A stretch of DNA of 40,699 bases from a virus (IMGVR_UViG_647533158_000007), one strand, 5' to 3'. Numbered from the stretch's first letter, positions 1-40,699 are shown. Made by a program: numbers and translations. Notes: generated by a model not told the origin, from the letters alone.

Positions 1-1158
1 ATGCTCACCGTTAAGCAGATTGAAGCAGCAAAGCCGAAAGAAAAACCATACCGCCTTCTCGATGGTAATGGCCTGTACCTTTATGTCCCTGTATCCGGAA
101 AAAAGGTCTGGCAGCTTCGCTACAAGATTGACGGTAAGGAGAAAATCCTGACTGTCGGAAAATATCCGCTTATGACTTTGCAGGAAGCAAGGGATAAGGC
201 ATGGACCGCGAGGAAAGACATCTCGGTTGGCATCGATCCGGTAAAAGCGAAAAAGGCTTCGTCTAACAACAATTCCTTTAGTGCGATTTACAAGGAATGG
301 TACGAGCACAAGAAGCAAGTCTGGTCAGTAGGCTATGCAACTGAACTTGCAAAAATGTTTGATGACGACATTTTACCTATCATCGGCGGCCTTGAAATTC
401 AGGATATTGAGCCGATGCAACTGCTGGAAGTAATCCGCAGATTTGAAGATCGCGGTGCAATGGAGCGAGCCAACAAAGCCCGCAGAAGATGCGGCGAGGT
501 TTTCCGTTACGCTATTGTCACTGGTAGGGCTAAATATAACCCGGCACCTGACCTTGCTGACGCCATGAAGGGATACCGCAAGAAGAACTTCCCGTTTCTT
601 CCTGCAGACCAGATCCCGGCATTCAACAAAGCACTTGCAACATTTTCAGGAAGTATCGTATCGCTCATTGCGACCAAAGTTTTACGCTACACAGCCCTCA
701 GAACGAAAGAGCTTCGTTCCATGCTATGGAAGAACGTCGATTTTGAAAACAGGATTATCACCATCGACGCCAGTGTGATGAAGGGACGCAAAATTCATGT
801 GGTTCCTATGTCAGGCCAGGTAGTTGAACTTCTCACTACACTAAGCTCAATCACCAAACCAGTATCAGAGTTTGTTTTTGCCGGGCGCAACGATAAGAAG
901 AAGCCAATCTGCGAGAACGCGGTGCTACTTGTGATCAAACAAATCGGCTATGAGGGTCTGGAAAGCGGTCACGGATTCAGGCATGAATTCAGCACGATTA
1001 TGAACGAGCACGAATGGCCTGCTGATGCTATTGAAGTGCAACTGGCACATGCCAACGGCGGATCTGTGCGTGGGATTTACAACCATGCTCAGTATCTCGA
1101 TAAGCGCAGAGAAATGATGCAGTGGTGGGCGGATTATCTCGATGAGAGGGTGTCGTAG
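1..1158 (+). CDS. int: Phage tyrosine integrase (P4/IntS-like)
   Basis: 385 aa; C-terminal catalytic motifs GHGFRHEF (HxxR) and RGIYNHAQY (Tyr); first 89 nt are duplicated at 38499-38587 directly downstream of the att core; recalled similarity to argW-associated enterobacterial integrases. Confidence 0.9.
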   Translation: MLTVKQIEAAKPKEKPYRLLDGNGLYLYVPVSGKKVWQLRYKIDGKEKILTVGKYPLMTLQEARDKAWTARKDISVGIDPVKAKKASSNNNSFSAIYKEWYEHKKQVWSVGYATELAKMFDDDILPIIGGLEIQDIEPMQLLEVIRRFEDRGAMERANKARRRCGEVFRYAIVTGRAKYNPAPDLADAMKGYRKKNFPFLPADQIPAFNKALATFSGSIVSLIATKVLRYTALRTKELRSMLWKNVDFENRIITIDASVMKGRKIHVVPMSGQVVELLTTLSSITKPVSEFVFAGRNDKKKPICENAVLLVIKQIGYEGLESGHGFRHEFSTIMNEHEWPADAIEVQLAHANGGSVRGIYNHAQYLDKRREMMQWWADYLDERVS

Positions 1159-1296: not shown

Positions 1297-3252
1297 ATGA
1301 GCTTTCTTTTGAAGACTGACAAAACATTGTCTAAAAATTACCAGCCAGGAGTTGATGGACTCCGTGCTGTTGCCGTCATTTTAGTTCTTATATTCCATGT
1401 AGGGTTCAGTAGTGTTCCAGGAGGGTTTGTTGGCGTTGATGTATTTTTTGTTATTTCTGGTTATCTGATAACTGGAATAATTTTTAATCAAACTGAGAAG
1501 GGAACTTTCAGTTACATTAATTTCATGTTAGCCAGGATAGCAAGACTGTACCCGGCTCTTATAGCAACGCTGATCGCCGTTTTTGCTGGATGCTTTATTC
1601 TGTACTCCCCTTCTGATTTTGTTAGCGTATCTAAATCAGCAATCTATGCTTTGTACTCAGCATCAAATATATTTTTTGCACAAAGCGTTGGTTATTTCGA
1701 TACATCATCAGAAATAAATCCATTGTTGCACACATGGTCTCTTGGTGTAGAACAGCAGTTCTATCTTGTATGGCCTCTGATTATCGGAGCAGCATATTTA
1801 GTAAAAAAGAGCCTTGTGCCATGGGTTCTGGTTATTATTAGTATTGCTTCTCTGGCATCCTCTCAGTGGGCAACTATAAACATGCAAACTGAAGCATACT
1901 ACTGGATGCCGTTCAGGGTTTTTGAGTTGTCTTTCGGCGGACTCGCATTCTTCATTTCTCGATGGATAAAACCATCTGAACTAACGAAGGAGTCTATGAT
2001 GGCTGCGGGACTTGCGATGATAGTATCATCTGCGTTGCTTTACTCATCATCAACTCAGTTCCCTGGTTTACATGCCATGATTCCCGTATTGGGTACCATG
2101 CTTTGCATTCTTTCACATGATGCAAAATACGCTGGATTCGCTGTGAATAACAGGGTCAGCGTTACGATCGGCCTGATATCTTATTCAGTTTATCTAATTC
2201 ACTGGCCTATTATTGTGTTTTACAAATACTGGATATATAGAGAGTTAAATGATATCGAGAAAGCATCATTGATTTTATCTTCGCTGGCTGTTGGATTCTT
2301 AATGTACAACGCAATAGAAAATAAATTCAGAAAGATAAAAATAAATGAGTTTTGCTACAAATCAGTATTGCTTTTATCATTAACTATATTGGTTATGATT
2401 TCGTATTCATCTTCAATAAAAGACAACGGATTTGCATTTAGAATACAAAATTATAAAGAAAACATGGAAATGCTCAAGCCTGGATTTAAAGAATATTTAT
2501 TCGGAGGCTTTGGGGTTAAGCAAGGTGAAATGGTAGTTCTTGGAGATAAAACCAAAAAGCCATCATTTGTTTTCATGGGTGACAGTTATGCAAGACAGTA
2601 TTCATTAGCCATGAGTGAATTTCTTGCAAAGAGAAATCTATCAGCAGCAGCATTCTTCGCTGATGGGGCATATCTATCAAATAGCGTTTACGTTACAGAA
2701 AAAGGGAAGGTTTCTGTATATGGTGTGAAGATAGGAACAAAAGCGATAGATTACTCTAAATATAATAAGATACCACTTGTTTATGCACAATCATGGCTTA
2801 GGTACATGGAGATGCTATCTGATAAAGATGGTAATGTGTATAAATTCAACGGAGACCATGATTATATGAAATTCAATGCTTCCGTTATTAACAATATTCA
2901 AGAGTACACAAATCAGAAAGTAATTGTTATTGGAAACCACCCGGCAGCAATAGGCTCTGACGGCGGTCTTTCTTGTGTGAGCCGACCTTCATATGTTGAA
3001 AAGAAATGCATTGATAGTATTTTCAGCACAGAAAGCGGTGATAGGTTAGATAGCAATAATTATTTAAACAAATGGCTATCAGATAACGGAAGTATAAAGT
3101 TTATAAACCCTTATGATTTCATGTGTAGGAATGGGAGATGTAACCTAGTATCTGACAAAGGTGACGTTATGTATTCTGATGAGTATCATCTATCAAGATA
3201 TGGAGCAAGAAAGGCAATTGAAGGGTTTGGAAATATAATTATCGATATATAA
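1297..3252 (+). CDS. O-antigen acyltransferase (acyltransferase-3 membrane domain + C-terminal SGNH-like domain), lysogenic conversion
   Basis: 651 aa; N-terminal GLRAVAVILVLIFH...GGFVGVDVFFVISGYLIT typical of AT3 family; multiple hydrophobic helices; markedly AT-rich; located between int and tailspike as in serotype-converting P22-like phages. Confidence 0.8.
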   Translation: MSFLLKTDKTLSKNYQPGVDGLRAVAVILVLIFHVGFSSVPGGFVGVDVFFVISGYLITGIIFNQTEKGTFSYINFMLARIARLYPALIATLIAVFAGCFILYSPSDFVSVSKSAIYALYSASNIFFAQSVGYFDTSSEINPLLHTWSLGVEQQFYLVWPLIIGAAYLVKKSLVPWVLVIISIASLASSQWATINMQTEAYYWMPFRVFELSFGGLAFFISRWIKPSELTKESMMAAGLAMIVSSALLYSSSTQFPGLHAMIPVLGTMLCILSHDAKYAGFAVNNRVSVTIGLISYSVYLIHWPIIVFYKYWIYRELNDIEKASLILSSLAVGFLMYNAIENKFRKIKINEFCYKSVLLLSLTILVMISYSSSIKDNGFAFRIQNYKENMEMLKPGFKEYLFGGFGVKQGEMVVLGDKTKKPSFVFMGDSYARQYSLAMSEFLAKRNLSAAAFFADGAYLSNSVYVTEKGKVSVYGVKIGTKAIDYSKYNKIPLVYAQSWLRYMEMLSDKDGNVYKFNGDHDYMKFNASVINNIQEYTNQKVIVIGNHPAAIGSDGGLSCVSRPSYVEKKCIDSIFSTESGDRLDSNNYLNKWLSDNGSIKFINPYDFMCRNGRCNLVSDKGDVMYSDEYHLSRYGARKAIEGFGNIIIDI

Positions 3253-3300: not shown

Positions 3301-5457
3301 TTACAGAGTTGGGAAGTTTGTTGATAATGGTACTATTGCATATTCAAGTTTTGTTGGCGGATTATTTGCAGCGCTGTATGTTGAAAGAGCCTCAAGCACA
3401 ATATACCCACTCCCGTTGTACCCTGCTTTGAAGCAACTTTGCAGGTTTGCTATGGATGTGTCTCCTGGATTTAACCGCTGATCAATGGGTGATTTAAGGT
3501 CAGTTGCATCTGCCCTGTCCGTTGCGTCATGCGCACCGGAAGACATGATATAAGTAGCATAATTATTTTTTACACCTCCAGTCACTTTTATGTGGAGAAG
3601 GTAAAGAGTGCGATCAGATGTAGAACCAGTCAATATCTGTTTATCAAGAGTAATTCGTACCTTTGAGCCATCAGATAACACAGGTAAAGACTTGCTTAAC
3701 ATTGCTACGCCATTAACAGTATTATCATAACCATTTCCGATATAGTTACCTGAACCTACAAAAGCTGAGTTCATTCGCCAGATATCTTCTGCCGTAAATA
3801 ACCCTGACGTAATGAAGTTACCTGTCCATACGTTTCTGTTTCTTTCTGGTCTTGCATTAAGCACCATTCCAACACCCCCGGCCATGAAGTTGCCAGATAT
3901 AACTGCTCCTGACATATCGGTAGTGTTGATGCATTGGAGTCTTAGGTCTTTGTTAACACCAGGATCAAGAACCATTTGCATGGTATTGCTGTTGATACTA
4001 ATTCCGGCACACCACGTGCCATTAAAACCGTTGTTATTGTTGTTTAACGCCTGTGAAGCGATGAAATTAAATATCCTCTGTTCTGAAGGATTTGTAGCAC
4101 CTTTATAGTAGAAAACATTTCCTGTAATACTAACAAGAGAAGTTCTAAGGAATATAGCGAAATCGTTAAGCGGGTTTTCCTCAAAATGATAGATATTGTT
4201 AGAAATAACTGAACGCCCACCAAGACCGACTCTAGTACTACCATCAAATTGCAATGACATCATTTTATTAGCTGTATTGACAAATCTGTTGGAAGTTATG
4301 TTTATTTCAAGCCCCCCAGTAAATGTATCCATCTCACACGCAGACTCAGCATTCCTGTTCATAAGTAAATTTCCAGAGAAAGCGCCTCCTATCGTCGATC
4401 CTCCGATTTTTATAATATCTGCATTCGGACCGGTCTGCATAAAAACATCAAAGGTGTTATTCGTTATGTGGAACATTGACTTGCGAGGAGTTCCAATGTC
4501 GACGGATGCAGTCGTGTTGCCAAGAATCATCAGATATGGATATACCTCACCCTGTTCACCTGACATTCCTGCATCAGAGATATACTGATCTGTGTTGTCA
4601 TCAGTCTTGCAGTAGTTATTATCAACTGAAATATGTACGCTTGTTGGGTCCTGACAGTTAACCATGATGTAGCCAACACCGCAGTTAAAGCATTGCATAT
4701 CTTTTATCACCACGCGCGTTGGTAAATTCGCCAGCCCATCAGGGTAATCATTGAAAATTACCTGAGGACGCTGGGTGTGGTATGCATTTGCGGTGAACTT
4801 ACCGCCGATAATCTCTACTGATTTTGCGCCAAGCGGATGGAAAATATAATCAATGCCATTGAAGGTAAATTCTCCAGTAGAAGCATCGATAATGATGTCT
4901 CCTGGGATGGTGACGGGGGCTGTTACATCGTACACACCTGATGCTACAACTCTCGTTTTGTTTGCAACCGCATAATTTACAGCTGCCTGTAATTTTTCTG
5001 ACGCATTACTTCCGGGGAATACCTCGGGGACAACCCATTTGATGGCATCCTGTACCGTGCCATATGGCATAATCCCAACAAGACCAGCGCCGTCTTGATT
5101 AGAAAGCCTAATCTCAAATTGATCAGGGTCGTACTTCAGCACATTAGGGAAATAGAACTGCTGTGATCCATATGCATCGTACACAGACATAGAATGACCT
5201 TGCACAGTTACAAACTTGGCAATCTGTCCGTTATATACCGGATATCCAGCAGCATTAATGATGATTGGTTGCGAAACAGGAACGTGAGAACCGTCTTCGT
5301 TCTCTATATAAACCTGAATCTGGTTTTCTGGATTTACCGGGTCAGTGTCAATTATTCCGATGTAAATTTTTCCATTAGCTACGGCTTTAAAAGAACGAGC
5401 CATAGTGAAGAGTTGCGAAGGCATCCCAATTACAACATTGGCTGTAATGTCTGTCAT
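3301..5457 (-). CDS. Tailspike protein (P22 gp9-like N-terminal head-binding domain, divergent receptor-binding domain)
   Basis: 718 aa; N-terminus MTDITANVVIGMPSQLFTMARSFKAVANGKIYIG...DTDPVNP...VYIENEDGSH closely resembles recalled P22 tailspike N-terminus; remainder does not resemble P22 endorhamnosidase domain. Confidence 0.88.
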   Translation of the reverse strand: MTDITANVVIGMPSQLFTMARSFKAVANGKIYIGIIDTDPVNPENQIQVYIENEDGSHVPVSQPIIINAAGYPVYNGQIAKFVTVQGHSMSVYDAYGSQQFYFPNVLKYDPDQFEIRLSNQDGAGLVGIMPYGTVQDAIKWVVPEVFPGSNASEKLQAAVNYAVANKTRVVASGVYDVTAPVTIPGDIIIDASTGEFTFNGIDYIFHPLGAKSVEIIGGKFTANAYHTQRPQVIFNDYPDGLANLPTRVVIKDMQCFNCGVGYIMVNCQDPTSVHISVDNNYCKTDDNTDQYISDAGMSGEQGEVYPYLMILGNTTASVDIGTPRKSMFHITNNTFDVFMQTGPNADIIKIGGSTIGGAFSGNLLMNRNAESACEMDTFTGGLEINITSNRFVNTANKMMSLQFDGSTRVGLGGRSVISNNIYHFEENPLNDFAIFLRTSLVSITGNVFYYKGATNPSEQRIFNFIASQALNNNNNGFNGTWCAGISINSNTMQMVLDPGVNKDLRLQCINTTDMSGAVISGNFMAGGVGMVLNARPERNRNVWTGNFITSGLFTAEDIWRMNSAFVGSGNYIGNGYDNTVNGVAMLSKSLPVLSDGSKVRITLDKQILTGSTSDRTLYLLHIKVTGGVKNNYATYIMSSGAHDATDRADATDLKSPIDQRLNPGDTSIANLQSCFKAGYNGSGYIVLEALSTYSAANNPPTKLEYAIVPLSTNFPTL

Positions 5458-36423: not shown

Positions 36424-37287
36424 ATGACCACTTTCACCGACAAAGAACTGATTAAAGAAATCAAAGAACGCATAGGCAGCCTGGACGTTCGAGACAATAT
36501 TGAGCGCCGTGCTTATGAAATTGCACTGGCATCACTGGAAGCAGATCCAGTTGCTTATATTTTCAAACATCCGGCCGGGAAATTATTCTGGGCTTTAACG
36601 GATGAAAGCAATAAAGAGCAAGCGGACGTTATTCCTGTTTATACTGCCGCGCCTGCGTCGGTTGTGCCGGATAATGCATCAGAGCCTCTTGCTTATGCTT
36701 ACAAAGAGCTTACGCCTGAGATTATGCGCAACCATTTAGCTGTATTCGAGCGATATGGAATAGCCCCAAACGATAGCTCTACCACAATTCAGGCACTGCG
36801 AATCGCGCTGGATGGCATAGAGCGGAGCGACGCCATGCTTCATGGAGCCGAACCTGTAAGCCAAACTTACAACTTGCCAGAATTAATCGAAGGGATGGAA
36901 GTTTCCATTGATGTAAGCACTTGTGATGCTGATTTAGGTAATCGCTATTTCGGCACCGTCACCGAGGCGTTAGAACTTGATACGGCCAAGAATGGTTACA
37001 TCCTCCTGGTTCAGGACGCAGAGCCAAACTTCGATGTAAATGGCAACTCTCCGGGAACTCCGGATAGTTGGATAAGCTGTAGTGATCAAATGCCTGAAAA
37101 GAACCAGAACGTGCTTATTTCGGTGAATTTCGATAGTGATCTGGTTGAGCCGCTAATATGCTCCGCACGCTATACCGGAAGTACATTCCGGCGTGGAGGT
37201 GTAACGGTTATGCCAGGTAATGGTATTGAGCAAGCAACTCACTGGATGCCGCTACCGGAACCGCCGCAGGAGGTAAACCGTGGCTAA
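36424..37287 (+). CDS. DUF551-family phage protein
   Basis: Start at internal Met with AAAGGAG RBS; C-terminal W.SCSDQMPE...HWMPLPEPP motif typical of DUF551 proteins. Confidence 0.6.
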   Translation: MTTFTDKELIKEIKERIGSLDVRDNIERRAYEIALASLEADPVAYIFKHPAGKLFWALTDESNKEQADVIPVYTAAPASVVPDNASEPLAYAYKELTPEIMRNHLAVFERYGIAPNDSSTTIQALRIALDGIERSDAMLHGAEPVSQTYNLPELIEGMEVSIDVSTCDADLGNRYFGTVTEALELDTAKNGYILLVQDAEPNFDVNGNSPGTPDSWISCSDQMPEKNQNVLISVNFDSDLVEPLICSARYTGSTFRRGGVTVMPGNGIEQATHWMPLPEPPQEVNRG

Positions 37288-38048: not shown

Positions 38049-38249
38049 ATGCAACACGAACTACAGCCTGATTCACTGGTTGATTTGAAATTCATCATGG
38101 CTGATACTGGCTTCGGTAAAACCTTCATCTATGACCGGATTAAGTCCGGAGACCTGCCTAAAGCCAAAGTTATCCACGGGCGAGCAAGATGGTTATATCG
38201 TGACCATTGTGAATTCAAAAATAAGCTTTTAAGCCGCGCCAATGGGTAA
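38049..38249 (+). CDS. xis: AlpA-family excisionase / DNA-binding regulator
   Basis: 66 aa; winged-helix-like MADTGFGKTFIYDRIKSGDLPKAKVIHGRARWLYRD; directly upstream of att and int. Confidence 0.7.
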   Translation: MQHELQPDSLVDLKFIMADTGFGKTFIYDRIKSGDLPKAKVIHGRARWLYRDHCEFKNKLLSRANG

Positions 38250-38498
38250 AATAGCGGGTAAAATATTTCTCACATCTAAAAAACACCATTCCAATCAACC
38301 CCCTGCCTCGTCAAGTAGATGTCTGCAGGGGACACCATTTATCAGTTCGCTCCCATCCGTACCAGTCCGCAAAATCCCCTGAATATCAAGCCTTCCGTAG
38401 ATTCACAGTTCGTAATGGTTCGCGTCAGATCGTTGACAGCCGCACTCCATGACGGGTAAAAAGTGGATAAAATAACTTTACCCACCGGATTTTTACCC
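38244..38498. repeat. att region with arm-type repeats (GGGTAAAA-like) flanking the core
   Basis: Direct copies gggtaaaat (38244-38252, 38256-38264), gggtaaaaa (38454-38462), ggataaaata (38465-38474), and inverted tttaccc (38477-38483) and tttttaccc (38490-38498) immediately before the int ATG. Confidence 0.55.
38323..38337 (+). other. att core (phage-phage junction copy) matching a tRNA 3' end (argW-like ...CTGCAGGGGACACCA)
   Basis: 15-nt block ending in ACACCA (tRNA acceptor end plus CCA); here followed by phage arm sequence and int. Confidence 0.6.
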
Positions 38499-38587
38499 AT
38501 GCTCACCGTTAAGCAGATTGAAGCAGCAAAGCCGAAAGAAAAACCATACCGCCTTCTCGATGGTAATGGCCTGTACCTTTATGTCCC
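38499..38587 (+). other. int: Duplicate of integrase 5' end (identical to positions 1-89), truncated by scaffold gap
   Basis: 89 nt identical to window start; runs into N-run. Confidence 0.9.
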
Positions 38588-38774
38588 NNNNNNNNNNNNN
38601 NNNNNNNNNNNNNNNNNNNNNNNNNNNNNNNNNNNNNNNNNNNNNNNNNNNNNNNNNNNNNNNNNNNNNNNNNNNNNNNNNNNNNNNNNNNNNNNNNNNN
38701 NNNNNNNNNNNNNNNNNNNNNNNNNNNNNNNNNNNNNNNNNNNNNNNNNNNNNNNNNNNNNNNNNNNNNNNNNN
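38588..38774. other. Assembly/scaffold gap (187 N)
   Basis: Continuous run of n; ORFs containing X across it are artefacts. Confidence 0.99.
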
Positions 38775-39010
38775 TGATACTGGCTTCGGTAAAACCTTCA
38801 TCTATGACCGGATTAAGTCCGGAGACCTGCCTAAAGCCAAAGTTATCCACGGGCGAGCAAGATGGTTATATCGTGACCATTGTGAATTCAAAAATAAGCT
38901 TTTAAGCCGCGCCAATGGGTAAAATAGCGGGTAAAATATTTCTCACATCTAAAAAACACCATTCCAATCAACCCCCTGCCTCGTCAAGTAGATGTCTGCA
39001 GGGGACACCA
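38775..39010 (+). repeat. Second copy of xis 3' end + att arm + core (identical to 38102-38337), ending at the phage-host junction
   Basis: 236-nt exact duplicate; copies diverge immediately after ...ctgcaggggacacca (core at 38996-39010), after which unrelated host sequence follows. Confidence 0.85.
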
Positions 39011-39451
39011 GATACCCTTCAAACGAAATCTACCTTCACCCCGTAAAAGATGGGTTTGGCAGCACACTTGCCTTATATCTACTCATTTTTACTGCAACAG
39101 GTTGAAATCTCAGCACTGTCAGAAAGCGCTGATGACTAAACAGCCCTGAGCCGGGCGATGTAACCATCACACAGAATCCTGATAGCGAAATATGGCGTGA
39201 CTCGATACTTCACTCCGCAATGCATTCCTTGATGAATTCGCAGGACCGTGATACACGGGACAGGTCACTGAATGACGACAATGTCCTGGAAATCAGCGAA
39301 CCGCGCATCTGAAGTACATTTGAGCGACTGTACCAGAACATGAATGAGGCGTTTGGATTAGGCGATTATTAGCAGGGCTAAGCATTTTACTATTATTATT
39401 TTCCGGTTGAGGGATATAGAGCTATCGACAACAACCGGAAAAAGTTTACGT

Positions 39452-40699
39452 CTATATTGCTGAAGGTACAGGCGTTTCCATAACTATTTGCTCGCGTTTT
39501 TTACTCAAGAAGAAAATGCCAAATAGCAACATCAGGCAGACAATACCCGAAATTGCGAAGAAAACTGTTTGGTAGCCTGCGTGGTCAAAGAGTATCCCAG
39601 TCGGCGTTGAAAGCAGCACAATCCCAAGCGAACTGGCAATTTGAAAACCAATCAGAAAGATCGTCGACGACAGGCGCTTATCAAAGTTTGCCACGCTGTA
39701 TTTGAAGACGGATATGACACAAAGTGGAACCTCAATGGCATGTAACAACTTCACTAATGAAATAATCCAGGGGTTAACGAACAGCGCGCAGGAAAGGATA
39801 CGCAACGCCATAATCACAACTCCGATAAGTAATGCATTTTTTGGCCCTACCCGATTCACAAAGAAAGGAATAATCGCCATGCACAGCGCTTCGAGTACCA
39901 CCTGGAATGAGTTGAGATAACCATACAGGCGCGTTCCTACATCGTGTGATTCGAATAAACCTGAATAAAAGACAGGAAAAAGTTGTTGATCAAAAATGTT
40001 ATAGAAAGACCACGTCCCCACAATAAATATGACGAAAACCCAGAAGTTTCGATCCTTGAAAACTGCGATAAAATCCTCTTTTTTTACCCCTCCCGCATCT
40101 GCCGCTACGCACTGGTGATCCTTATCTTTAAAACGCATGTTGATCATCATAAATACAGCGCCAAATAGCGAGACCAACCAGAAGTTGATATGGGGACTGA
40201 TACTAAAAAATATGCCGGCAAAGAACGCGCCAATAGCATAGCCAAAAGATCCCCAGGCGCGCGCTGTTCCATATTCGAAATGAAAATTTCGCGCCATTTT
40301 TTCGGTGAAGCTATCAAGCAAACCGCATCCCGCCAGATACCCCAAGCCAAAAAATAGCGCCCCCAGAATTAGACCTACAGAAAAATTGCTTTGCAGTAAC
40401 GGTTCATAAACGTAAATCATAAACGGTCCGGTCAAGACCAGGATGAAACTCATACACCAGATGAGCGGTTTCTTCAGACCGAGTTTATCCTGAACGATGC
40501 CGTAGAACATCATAAATAGAATGCTGGTAAACTGGTTGACCGAATAAAGTGTACCTAATTCCGTCCCTGTCAACCCTAGATGTCCTTTCAGCCAAATAGC
40601 GTATAACGACCACCACAGCGACCAGGAAATAAAAAAGAGAAATGAGTAACTGGATGCAAAACGATAGTACGCATTTCTGAATGGAATATTCAGTGCCAT
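39452..40699 (-). CDS. Host MFS transporter, LacY/oligosaccharide:H+ symporter family
   Basis: 415 aa, 12 predicted TM helices; LacY-family signatures (D-K-L-G-L-K loop, FDQQ, GPKNALL, EVP, FKY) by comparison with recalled E. coli LacY. Confidence 0.8.
   Translation of the reverse strand: MALNIPFRNAYYRFASSYSFLFFISWSLWWSLYAIWLKGHLGLTGTELGTLYSVNQFTSILFMMFYGIVQDKLGLKKPLIWCMSFILVLTGPFMIYVYEPLLQSNFSVGLILGALFFGLGYLAGCGLLDSFTEKMARNFHFEYGTARAWGSFGYAIGAFFAGIFFSISPHINFWLVSLFGAVFMMINMRFKDKDHQCVAADAGGVKKEDFIAVFKDRNFWVFVIFIVGTWSFYNIFDQQLFPVFYSGLFESHDVGTRLYGYLNSFQVVLEALCMAIIPFFVNRVGPKNALLIGVVIMALRILSCALFVNPWIISLVKLLHAIEVPLCVISVFKYSVANFDKRLSSTIFLIGFQIASSLGIVLLSTPTGILFDHAGYQTVFFAISGIVCLMLLFGIFFLSKKREQIVMETPVPSAI

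What the first reader, a model, noticed from the sequence alone, without database searches (positions are those of the whole stretch)
38049..39010. Phage-phage (attP-type) junction and phage-host junction both present, flanking an N gap, with a tRNA-3'-end core and arm-type repeats
The xis gene is followed by a core ending ...CTGCAGGGGACACCA (resembling the 3' end of tRNA-Arg argW, including CCA), then arm repeats of GGGTAAAA type, then the first 89 nt of int identical to window positions 1-89, then 187 Ns. After the gap the last 236 nt of the xis-core segment recur exactly and run into unrelated host DNA. The xis-core-int arrangement is the junction of a circular, concatemeric or tandemly integrated phage genome; the second copy is the prophage-host junction. 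The assembly therefore suggests either a tandem double lysogen or excised/replicating phage DNA in the sequenced sample. A plain over-extension of the contig by the assembler would give the same picture.
Basis: seen in the sequence. Interest (0 to 1): 0.5.

Follow-up and report, generated by a model that had tools for sequence, protein, structure and literature searches.

The report
Prophage attP junction kept in draft assembly
An ordinary P22-like prophage sits in the E. coli argW tRNA gene, and the draft assembly kept both its prophage-host junction and its circular-form junction, most likely because some cells in the sequenced culture were releasing the phage.

Summary
Window 38499-38587 equals 1-89, 38775-39010 equals 38102-38337, and 187 Ns lie between them. 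The 15-bp core CTGCAGGGGACACCA is the exact 3' end of tRNA-Arg argW.

The site is the well-studied IntS/TorI (KplE1/HK620/Sf6) recombination module. Xis is 66/66 identical to TorI (PDB 1Z4H). The P' arm is 156/161 identical to K-12 KplE1 attL.

The window is a provirus cut from GenBank scaffold GG749139.1 (GCA_000163155.1). That scaffold also carries attL (yfdC-argW-P'-int), with the same kind of overhang and an N gap. The scaffold is therefore three contigs: host-left, a phage contig that overlaps itself by 262 nt across attP, and host-right.

An independent Logan assembly of raw run SRR027711 breaks the phage contigs exactly at both core edges. A k=31 simulation gives those ends only if attP junctions are in the reads. 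A pure assembler artefact is therefore rejected.

Free phage DNA from spontaneous induction (about 0.65) cannot be separated from a tandem double lysogen (about 0.2) without read counts. Both are known: phage Kapi1 behaved the same way, and 17 closed E. coli genomes show either form. This is ordinary and of low interest.

The parts
1..1158 (+). int: IntS-type tyrosine integrase, 385 aa. Window position 1 is its ATG.
   Evidence: The ORF is. Pfam gives Arm-DNA-bind_3, Phage_int_M and Phage_integrase on the same gene in the parent scaffold. NCBIfam gives an integrase domain. Homologues are annotated intS.
38049..38249 (+). xis: the recombination directionality factor, identical to TorI.
   Evidence: It is 66/66 identical to PDB 1Z4H, 'Tor inhibition protein'. 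Matching genomes annotate it torI.
38243..38322 (+). P arm of attP, with two direct arm-type repeats: TGGGTAAAATA at 38243-38253 and CGGGTAAAATA at 38255-38265. The repeats overlap the xis stop codon.
   Evidence: Repeats are. The first 23 nt (38243-38265) correspond to the HK620 repeat_region 'attP' at L001 850-872. The 73 nt after the xis stop codon (38250-38322) are 69/73 identical to both HK620 and K-12 KplE1 attR.
38323..38337 (+). attP core, CTGCAGGGGACACCA, equal to the last 15 nt of tRNA-Arg(CCU) argW.
   Evidence: KplE1 has a 16-nt core, CTGCAGGGGACACCAT (PMC2951348). HK620 is annotated 'attP core' here.
38338..38498 (+). P' arm of attP. Arm-type sites are CGGGTAAAA at 38453-38461, TGGATAAAATA at 38464-38474, and inverted copies at 38477-38484 and 38491-38499. 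In KplE1 this arm also carries the intS promoter and the TorI sites.
   Evidence: Repeats are. It is 156/161 identical to K-12 KplE1 attL and 157/161 to HK620. Binding-site roles come from PMC2951348 and PMC3509656 and were not mapped here.
38499..38587 (+). Second copy of int nt 1-89. This is the overhanging 3' end of the phage contig, which stops exactly 250 nt past the core.
   Evidence: Exact identity and the 250-nt distance are.
38588..38774 (.). Scaffold gap of 187 Ns between the phage contig and the host-right contig. It is not a real 187-bp stretch.
   Evidence: No complete E. coli genome has an int stub followed by a second xis fragment; the best coverage of 38049-39400 is 68%, which is a plain attR.
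38775..38995 (+). Second copy of the xis 3' part plus the P arm (equal to 38102-38322). This is the overhanging 5' end of the host-right contig.
38996..39010 (+). attR core, the partial argW 3' end left at the right prophage end.
39011..40699 (-). Host chromosome downstream of argW: an intergenic stretch, then cscB (sucrose permease) at 39452-40699 on the minus strand. The window ends on the cscB start codon.
   Evidence: The attR-plus-host segment 38775-39700 is 99.6-99.7% identical to many E. coli chromosomes, where the genes are annotated torI and cscB or oligosaccharide MFS transporter.

Best explanation
The region is the attachment site of an apparently intact 38,498-bp P22-like (Lederbergvirus) prophage. 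It is integrated in the 3' end of tRNA-Arg argW of an E. coli isolate (GenBank scaffold GG749139.1, next to the csc sucrose genes). It uses the known IntS/TorI (KplE1/HK620/Sf6-type) recombination module.

How the module works. IntS binds the arm-type GGGTAAAA/TAAA repeats on both arms. It exchanges strands inside the 15-bp core shared with argW. Because attP lies between xis and int, integration places int at attL and xis (TorI) at attR. TorI then directs excision.

What the sequenced DNA contained. It held three junction types: attL, attR and attP (xis-core-P'-int). The assembly graph therefore branched at both edges of the core. The assembler produced three contigs: host-left, a phage contig that closes on itself across attP, and host-right. 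Each contig overhangs the branch by roughly one read length (236-275 nt). Mate pairs then strung them into one scaffold with N gaps.

Most likely source of the attP molecules. Circular, concatemeric or packaged (headful, circularly permuted) phage DNA came from spontaneous induction in part of the culture.

Basis of each step. Shown here: the anatomy, the module identity, and the presence of attP junctions in the raw reads. Taken from the literature and inferred by homology: protein binding and the exchange mechanism. Inferred: free phage DNA rather than a tandem array.
For: Anatomy and exact duplications.

Core equals the argW 3' end 15/15. The empty attB exists at 100% identity in many genomes.

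Module identity:
- The attP region is 97-98% identical to HK620, Sf6 and IME10, and HK620 carries attP core and repeat annotations.
- Xis equals TorI 66/66.
- The P' arm is 156/161 identical to KplE1 attL.
- The mechanism is described in PMC2951348 and PMC3509656.

Parent scaffold: yfdC-argW-P'-int(about 98 nt)-N75-[phage contig starting inside the core]. The phage contig overlaps itself by 262 nt.

Raw-read support:
- Logan contigs of run SRR027711 start exactly at 38323 and end exactly at 38337, and are 100% identical to the window.
- The k=31 simulation reproduces these ends only when attP junctions are present. A single lysogen alone does not give them, and neither does a lysogen plus attB.

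Prophage completeness: integrase, S24 repressor, Cro, replication O, primase-helicase, Q, lysozyme, terminase, P22 portal, coat, gp7, gp16, tail needle and tailspike are all present.

Precedents:
- Kapi1 has the same attP at argW. In lysogen sequencing it assembled twice as its own terminally redundant (circular) contig, which the authors attributed to excised DNA. It shows spontaneous induction (PMC8787464).
- Five complete E. coli assemblies carry this junction on small separate replicons. One is a 39,448-bp circular 'plasmid' with torI-attP-intS.
- attP split reads in ordinary lysogen sequencing are a known signal (PMC8682789).
Against: No read counts or coverage could be obtained, so free phage DNA and a tandem array are not separated. 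Both give identical contig ends in the simulation.

attB junction reads, which would prove excision, could not be looked for. The only host-side protein in the window, CscB, is far too common for the sample's contig to be retrieved.

Among complete E. coli genomes, chromosomal attP-type junctions (12) outnumber separate replicons (5). One of the 12 was checked and is a full tandem.

The N-gap lengths (187 and 75) do not match the negative gaps expected from overlapping contig ends. They remain unexplained.
Confidence: 0.65

Rival explanations
1. Tandem double (or multiple) lysogen. Two head-to-tail copies of the prophage sit at argW. A real attP-type junction then lies between them on the chromosome. 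The assembler collapsed the identical copies into one self-overlapping contig.
For: The simulation gives exactly the observed Logan contig ends for a tandem dilysogen as well. Twelve complete E. coli chromosomes carry a contiguous torI-attP-intS junction, and all but one of them have three matching places in the record. Strain no107 was checked and reads yfdC-argW-intS...torI-intS...torI-cscB. Tandem polylysogens are routine for lambdoid phages such as HK022 (PMC6814406).
Against: Such arrays are rare: 12 of 5426 complete genomes. The one inspected is a frameshift-rich assembly whose two copies differ by apparent errors, so some arrays may themselves come from concatemer reads. A close relative with the same module gave the circular-contig picture from excised DNA alone (PMC8787464). 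PMC6814406 itself warns that virion DNA mimics the tandem signal.
Confidence: 0.2
2. Pure assembly artefact. No attP molecules were in the sample. The assembler or a gap-closer jumped from attR reads to attL reads through the shared core and so fabricated xis-core-P'-int.
For: The stubs beside both N gaps are clearly assembler overhangs. One contig end carries a 1-nt discrepancy typical of a low-quality read end.
Against: The shared core is only 15 bp. That is shorter than any usual k-mer or minimum overlap. A second, independent assembly of the raw run breaks at both core edges to the base. Simulation shows that a single lysogen without attP junctions would assemble straight through.
Confidence: 0.05
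3. The scaffold is literally true. After the complete prophage there is a short remnant on the chromosome: P' arm, the first roughly 90-280 nt of int, a deletion joint, the last roughly 150 nt of xis, the P arm and attR.
For: The scaffolder placed a small positive gap (187 N) between the two pieces.
Against: No complete E. coli genome shows this arrangement. The best coverage of 38049-39400 is 68%, which is a plain attR. The same overhang-plus-gap pattern occurs at attL, where no remnant is needed. Both stubs are about one read length.
Confidence: 0.03

Closest known systems
KplE1 (CPS-53) IntS/TorI recombination module of E. coli K-12 at argW
   Same: The core is the same (15 of the 16 nt CTGCAGGGGACACCAT). 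The RDF is identical (TorI, 66/66). The P' arm is 156/161 identical and int nt 1-89 are 89/89 identical. int lies at attL and xis at attR, and the arm-type sites carry TAAA (PMC2951348, PMC3509656).
   Different: KplE1 is a 10-kb defective remnant without a repressor. Here the module serves a complete 38.5-kb P22-like phage. The host flank after the core differs (csc island, G instead of T after CCA), so the duplicated core is 15 bp rather than 16 bp.
attP of coliphage HK620 and Shigella phage Sf6 (Lederbergvirus)
   Same: The xis-attP-int segment is 97-98% identical. The attP core and repeat positions annotated in HK620 coincide with those here. attP lies between xis and int.
   Different: The rest of the genome is mosaic. 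At most 61% of the first 25 kb is covered by any deposited phage. There is a different moron next to int (a 651-aa acyltransferase) and a different tailspike.
Phage Kapi1 in E. coli MP1: the prophage assembled as its own circular contig in lysogen sequencing
   Same: It has the same att site at argW and the same xis/attP/int layout. Its phage contig also had terminal repeats that closed across attP in whole-genome data of the lysogen. The authors attributed this to excised DNA, and spontaneous induction was measured (PMC8787464).
   Different: In MP1 the phage contig was left unscaffolded. Here mate pairs placed it between the host contigs, so attL, attP and attR appear on one scaffold.
Tandem polylysogens of lambdoid phages (lambda, HK022), detected by an attP-type junction PCR
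   Same: An attP-type junction coexists with attL and attR. Closed E. coli genomes hold such arrays for this very module (PMC6814406).
   Different: It has not been shown here that the junction lies on the chromosome. Virion or circular DNA gives the same signal, as PMC6814406 itself cautions.

Membership tests
IntS/TorI (KplE1/HK620/Sf6-type) site-specific recombination module | The core sequence is identical to the 3' end of tRNA-Arg argW (CTGCAGGGGACACCA[T]). | tested here: met
   It matches argW 15/15. It coincides with the HK620 'attP core' and the CUS-3 'attL core' annotations.
IntS/TorI (KplE1/HK620/Sf6-type) site-specific recombination module | The recombination directionality factor is TorI/HkaC/Sf6 gp18. 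| tested here: met
   66/66 identical to TorI, PDB 1Z4H.
IntS/TorI (KplE1/HK620/Sf6-type) site-specific recombination module | An IntS-type tyrosine integrase with an N-terminal arm-binding domain is transcribed away from the att site, starting at the end of the P' arm. | tested here: met
   Pfam gives Arm-DNA-bind_3 plus Phage_integrase. int nt 1-89 are 89/89 identical to K-12 intS. The ATG directly follows the P' arm.
IntS/TorI (KplE1/HK620/Sf6-type) site-specific recombination module | attP lies between xis and int, so the two genes end up at opposite prophage ends. | tested here: met
   xis-core-P'-int is contiguous at 38049-38587. The parent scaffold has argW-P'-int at the left end and xis-core-host at the right end.
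IntS/TorI (KplE1/HK620/Sf6-type) site-specific recombination module | Arm-type integrase sites (TAAA-containing repeats) on both arms, and TorI sites on the P' arm. | tested here: met
   The repeats are present and enriched. The arms are 95-97% identical to the experimentally mapped KplE1 and HK620 arms. Actual protein binding was not testable, and TorI sites were not mapped here.
IntS/TorI (KplE1/HK620/Sf6-type) site-specific recombination module | Integrase- and TorI-dependent integration and excision activity. | not testable with these tools
   The presence of attL, attR and attP junctions in one sample fits activity but is indirect evidence.
P22-like temperate phage (Lederbergvirus) | P22-type virion and packaging gene set, with lambdoid early regions in P22 order. 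| tested here: met
   P22 portal, coat, gp7, gp16, tail needle, gp4/gp10-type stabilisation proteins, tailspike head-binding domain and PBSX-type terminase are present. So are Cro, an S24 repressor, replication O, Q, lysozyme and Erf. Best DNA matches are Lederbergvirus phages.
Free (excised, replicating or packaged) phage DNA in a lysogen culture | attP junction reads are present in the sample. | tested here: met
   Two independent assemblies plus simulation.
Free (excised, replicating or packaged) phage DNA in a lysogen culture | attB junction reads, and prophage depth above chromosomal depth by a non-integer factor. | not testable with these tools
   There is no access to reads or depth. 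The look-up of the host-side Logan contig failed because CscB is in 24,278 blocks of the index.
Tandem polylysogen | attL, an internal attP-type junction and attR on one chromosome; depth about n-fold; long molecules spanning a whole unit. | tested here: inconclusive
   All three junction types are present. Linkage and depth cannot be tested. The simulation cannot tell it from free DNA.
Repeat-collapse assembly artefact | The shared repeat is long enough (at least k or the minimum overlap) for reads of attL and attR to be joined. | tested here: not met
   The shared core is 15 bp and is flanked by mismatches on both sides. A single lysogen assembles straight through at k=31.

The most novel reading that the evidence does not exclude
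The isolate is a stable tandem double lysogen of an intact P22-like phage at argW. The attP-type junction is then chromosomal. It would be a natural polylysogen captured in a 2009-era draft genome, and the prophage dose, including its O-antigen acyltransferase moron, would be doubled.
Probability: 0.2. Interest if true: 0.2.

Novelty: already known. Interest (0 to 1): 0.1.

Why it matters
It matters little for biology. The att site, integrase and excisionase belong to one of the best-characterised recombination modules in E. coli. attP signals in lysogen sequencing are a known and already exploited sign of an active prophage.

The practical points are these:
- This prophage is probably active, meaning it excises or replicates, or else it is present in tandem.
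- The N-flanked duplications in GG749139.1 are scaffold artefacts. They create a false int fragment, a false truncated torI gene and spurious ORFs across the gap.
- Provirus callers that cut at gene boundaries inherit these artefacts.

Tried and rejected
1. A scan of viral contigs for the exact N-gap configuration, to find the source record, gave 0 hits. The source was found instead through an exact-protein look-up.

2. I tried to retrieve the Logan contigs on the xis side.
- The 123-aa ORF is not on record.
- The 114-aa version is too common and the sample was not shown.
- The 287-aa DUF551 protein worked.

3. I tried to test for attB reads through the start of the host-right Logan contig. 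CscB is in 24,278 index blocks, so the sample's contig could not be reached. Proteins outside the window may not be looked up. The attB test was therefore not possible.

4. A literature search for the accession or run identifiers gave 0 papers, so strain name and sequencing platform were not established. That the 236-275-nt overhangs correspond to read length is an inference.

5. I considered that the N run might hide real sequence, giving a remnant int'-xis' structure. This was rejected because no complete genome has it and the same pattern occurs at attL.

6. I considered a hetero-tandem of two different prophages. This was rejected because only one phage contig lies between the host contigs, and the attL copy of P'-int is identical to the phage contig apart from one base at the contig end.

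7. I tried to explain the gap sizes of 187 and 75 from the contig-overlap geometry. The expected values are negative, so the sizes remain unexplained.

Full report
**1. Observation**

- xis is at 38049-38249.
- A stretch ending in CTGCAGGGGACACCA ends at 38337.
- 161 nt follow, carrying GGGTAAAA-type repeats.
- An exact copy of window 1-89, the first 89 nt of int, lies at 38499-38587.
- 187 Ns lie at 38588-38774.
- An exact copy of 38102-38337 lies at 38775-39010. Its continuation diverges at the next base.

GGGTAAAA occurs 9 times in the window against 0.98 expected, and none of 100 shuffles reach 9. Four copies lie in attP and two in its duplicate. The repeats are arranged as direct and inverted copies on both arms.

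**2. What the site is**

The 15-nt core equals the last 15 nt of tRNA-Arg(CCU) argW, CCA included, and the identity stops on both sides.

The xis-core-int segment is 97-98% identical to the attP regions of HK620, Sf6, IME10 and relatives. The HK620 record annotates an attP core and attP repeats at the corresponding positions.

Xis is 66/66 identical to TorI, PDB 1Z4H. The P' arm is 156/161 identical to the experimentally dissected KplE1 attL of E. coli K-12, and int nt 1-89 are 89/89 identical to intS.

This is the IntS/TorI recombination module described by Ansaldi and colleagues. It has these features (PMC2951348, PMC3509656):
- a 16-nt core, CTGCAGGGGACACCAT;
- IntS arm-type sites that share TAAA;
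- five TorI sites on attL;
- an intS promoter inside attL;
- int and the RDF at opposite prophage ends.

The DNA after 39010 is host DNA. argW joined to 39011-39210 exists at 100% identity as an empty attB in many complete E. coli genomes. The flank carries cscB.

**3. The phage**

The unit length is 38,498 bp. The gene content is that of a complete P22-like phage:
- integrase, S24-type repressor, Cro, cII-region genes;
- replication O, a Toprim/DnaB-like protein, Q, lysozyme;
- small and large terminase, P22 portal, coat;
- gp4/gp10-type proteins, tail needle, gp7, gp16;
- a tailspike with the P22 head-binding domain, Erf, an anti-RecBCD protein, and others.

It is mosaic. No deposited phage covers more than 61% of the first 25 kb.

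**4. Where the window comes from**

An exact-protein look-up placed the window in GenBank scaffold GG749139.1 of GCA_000163155.1 (1.2 Mb), and in Logan assemblies of run SRR027711.

Window position 1 is the int ATG and the last base is the cscB ATG. The window is therefore a provirus cut at gene boundaries.

Upstream, the parent scaffold reads fadL-yfdF-mlaA-yfdC-argW, so the intact tRNA is present. It is followed by the P' arm, about 98 nt of int, 75 Ns, and then a contig that begins inside the core (CAGGGGACACCA...) and runs into the window.

The scaffold therefore consists of three contigs.
- C1 (host-left) overhangs 275 nt past the start of the core.
- C2 (phage) starts in the core and ends 250 nt past the core, one full turn later. 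It overlaps itself by 262 identical nt across attP.
- C3 (host-right) begins 236 nt before the end of the core.

The 89-nt limit is only where the window was cut.

**5. Is the attP junction real or an assembler product?**

The only sequence shared by attL and attR is the 15-bp core. That is too short to be collapsed by any usual k-mer or overlap criterion.

There is also independent evidence. Logan contig SRR027711_35 begins at 38323, the first core base. Contig SRR027711_291 ends at 38337, the last core base. Both are 100% identical to the window.

I simulated k=31 unitigs from the actual sequences.
- A single lysogen alone assembles straight through both junctions.
- A single lysogen plus attB ends the phage unitigs 15 nt past the core and 191 nt before the int ATG.
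- Only when attP-type junctions are added, as free molecules or as a tandem array, do the unitigs end at 0 nt past the core and 176 nt before the ATG, as observed.

The junction is therefore present in the raw reads. The 'plain over-extension' reading holds only for the stubs, not for the junction.

The literal scaffold order (int stub, about 187 nt, xis fragment) is not a natural arrangement. No complete E. coli genome covers more than 68% of 38049-39400 in one place.

**6. Free phage DNA or tandem lysogen?**

Both give the same graph, and I could not obtain depth or junction counts. A test for attB reads through the host-side Logan contig failed because CscB is too common to reach the sample.

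Precedents exist for both. Of 5426 complete E. coli genomes, 17 contain a contiguous torI-attP-intS junction.
- Twelve are on chromosomes. Strain no107 was verified as yfdC-argW-intS...torI-intS...torI-cscB, although it is a frameshift-rich assembly.
- Five are on small separate replicons, for example a 39,448-bp circular 'plasmid'.

Kapi1, a close relative with the same att site, assembled as its own terminally redundant contig in two independent sequencings of its lysogen. The authors attributed this to excised DNA and measured spontaneous induction (PMC8787464). attP split reads in routine lysogen sequencing are the basis of Prophage Tracer (PMC8682789). The HK022 work notes that virion DNA mimics the tandem signal (PMC6814406).

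I weighed the intactness of the prophage, the frequency of spontaneous induction in this phage group and the rarity of tandem arrays. My estimates are:
- free circular, concatemeric or packaged DNA, about 0.65;
- tandem lysogen, about 0.2;
- pure artefact, about 0.05;
- literal remnant, about 0.03.

**7. Comparison with known systems and novelty**

Every defining sequence feature of the IntS/TorI module that can be tested in silico is met. Activity was not testable. The phage is a new mosaic member of a very well-known group. The coexistence of attP, attL and attR in sequencing data is a known phenomenon. Nothing here is categorically or even variantly new.

**8. Verdict**

The finding is ordinary and of low interest.

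Its practical value is threefold. It flags an active (or tandem) prophage. It identifies scaffold artefacts in GG749139.1 that create false gene fragments. It also shows that contig break points in independent assemblies can stand in for read evidence.

The N-gap sizes (187 and 75) remain unexplained.

Noticed in passing
window 1 and 40699: Both window ends fall exactly on gene boundaries: the int ATG and the cscB ATG on the minus strand. The window is therefore a provirus call cut at gene edges. It includes about 1.7 kb of host DNA (cscB) but excludes attL and argW, which lie 161-323 nt upstream in the parent scaffold.
   Followed up: yes
L007 8182-8704 (parent scaffold GG749139.1, just upstream of window position 1): The left prophage end shows the mirror image of the finding. 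The order is argW-P'-int(about 98 nt), then 75 Ns, then the phage contig restarting inside the core. The host-left contig end has one extra base (GTATACCGG against GTATCCGG), probably a low-quality read end.
   Followed up: yes
window 1297-3252 (+): A 651-aa Acyl_transf_3 + SGNH protein lies between int and the tailspike, the usual position of O-antigen-modifying morons such as Sf6 Oac. The exact protein is on record only in this strain's two assemblies. It may be a seroconversion acetyltransferase.
   Followed up: partly
window 3301-5457 (-): In the 718-aa tailspike, only the N-terminal P22 head-binding domain matches a family. The receptor-binding part has no NCBIfam hit, so the O-antigen specificity is unknown.
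   Followed up: no
window 38463-38922 (both strands); L019 5352-5499: Four of the six listed ORFs here run across the N gap: 38463..38777 and 38518..38922 on the plus strand, and 38493..38801 and 38509..38850 on the minus strand. A 48-aa truncated torI gene is called in the post-gap copy of the parent scaffold. All of these are artefacts of the scaffold.
   Followed up: partly
window 36424-37287 (+): The exact sequence of this 287-aa DUF551 protein is also on record only in this strain. This made it usable as a handle to retrieve the sample's own Logan contig.
   Followed up: yes
L005/L006 (E. coli no107, NZ_CP075374.1 1520909-1598168): This closed chromosome holds two head-to-tail copies of a related P22-like prophage at argW. 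Many frameshifted genes differ between the copies. The array may be genuine, or it may be an artefact of assembling concatemer-derived long reads.
   Followed up: partly
window 39011-39025 compared with K-12 L033: The base after the core differs between hosts. It is G here in the csc-island flank, T in K-12, and TT in MP1 (Kapi1). The duplicated att sequence is therefore 15, 16 or 17 bp depending on the strain. This bounds the strand-exchange region to within the 15-bp core.
   Followed up: partly
L008 and L020 (Logan contigs of SRR027711): In the Logan assembly the phage is split into several contigs, with further breaks near window 14.0 kb and 27.8 kb. These breaks are unrelated to att. Repeats shared with other prophages or low 454 coverage could explain them, but this was not examined.
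   Followed up: no
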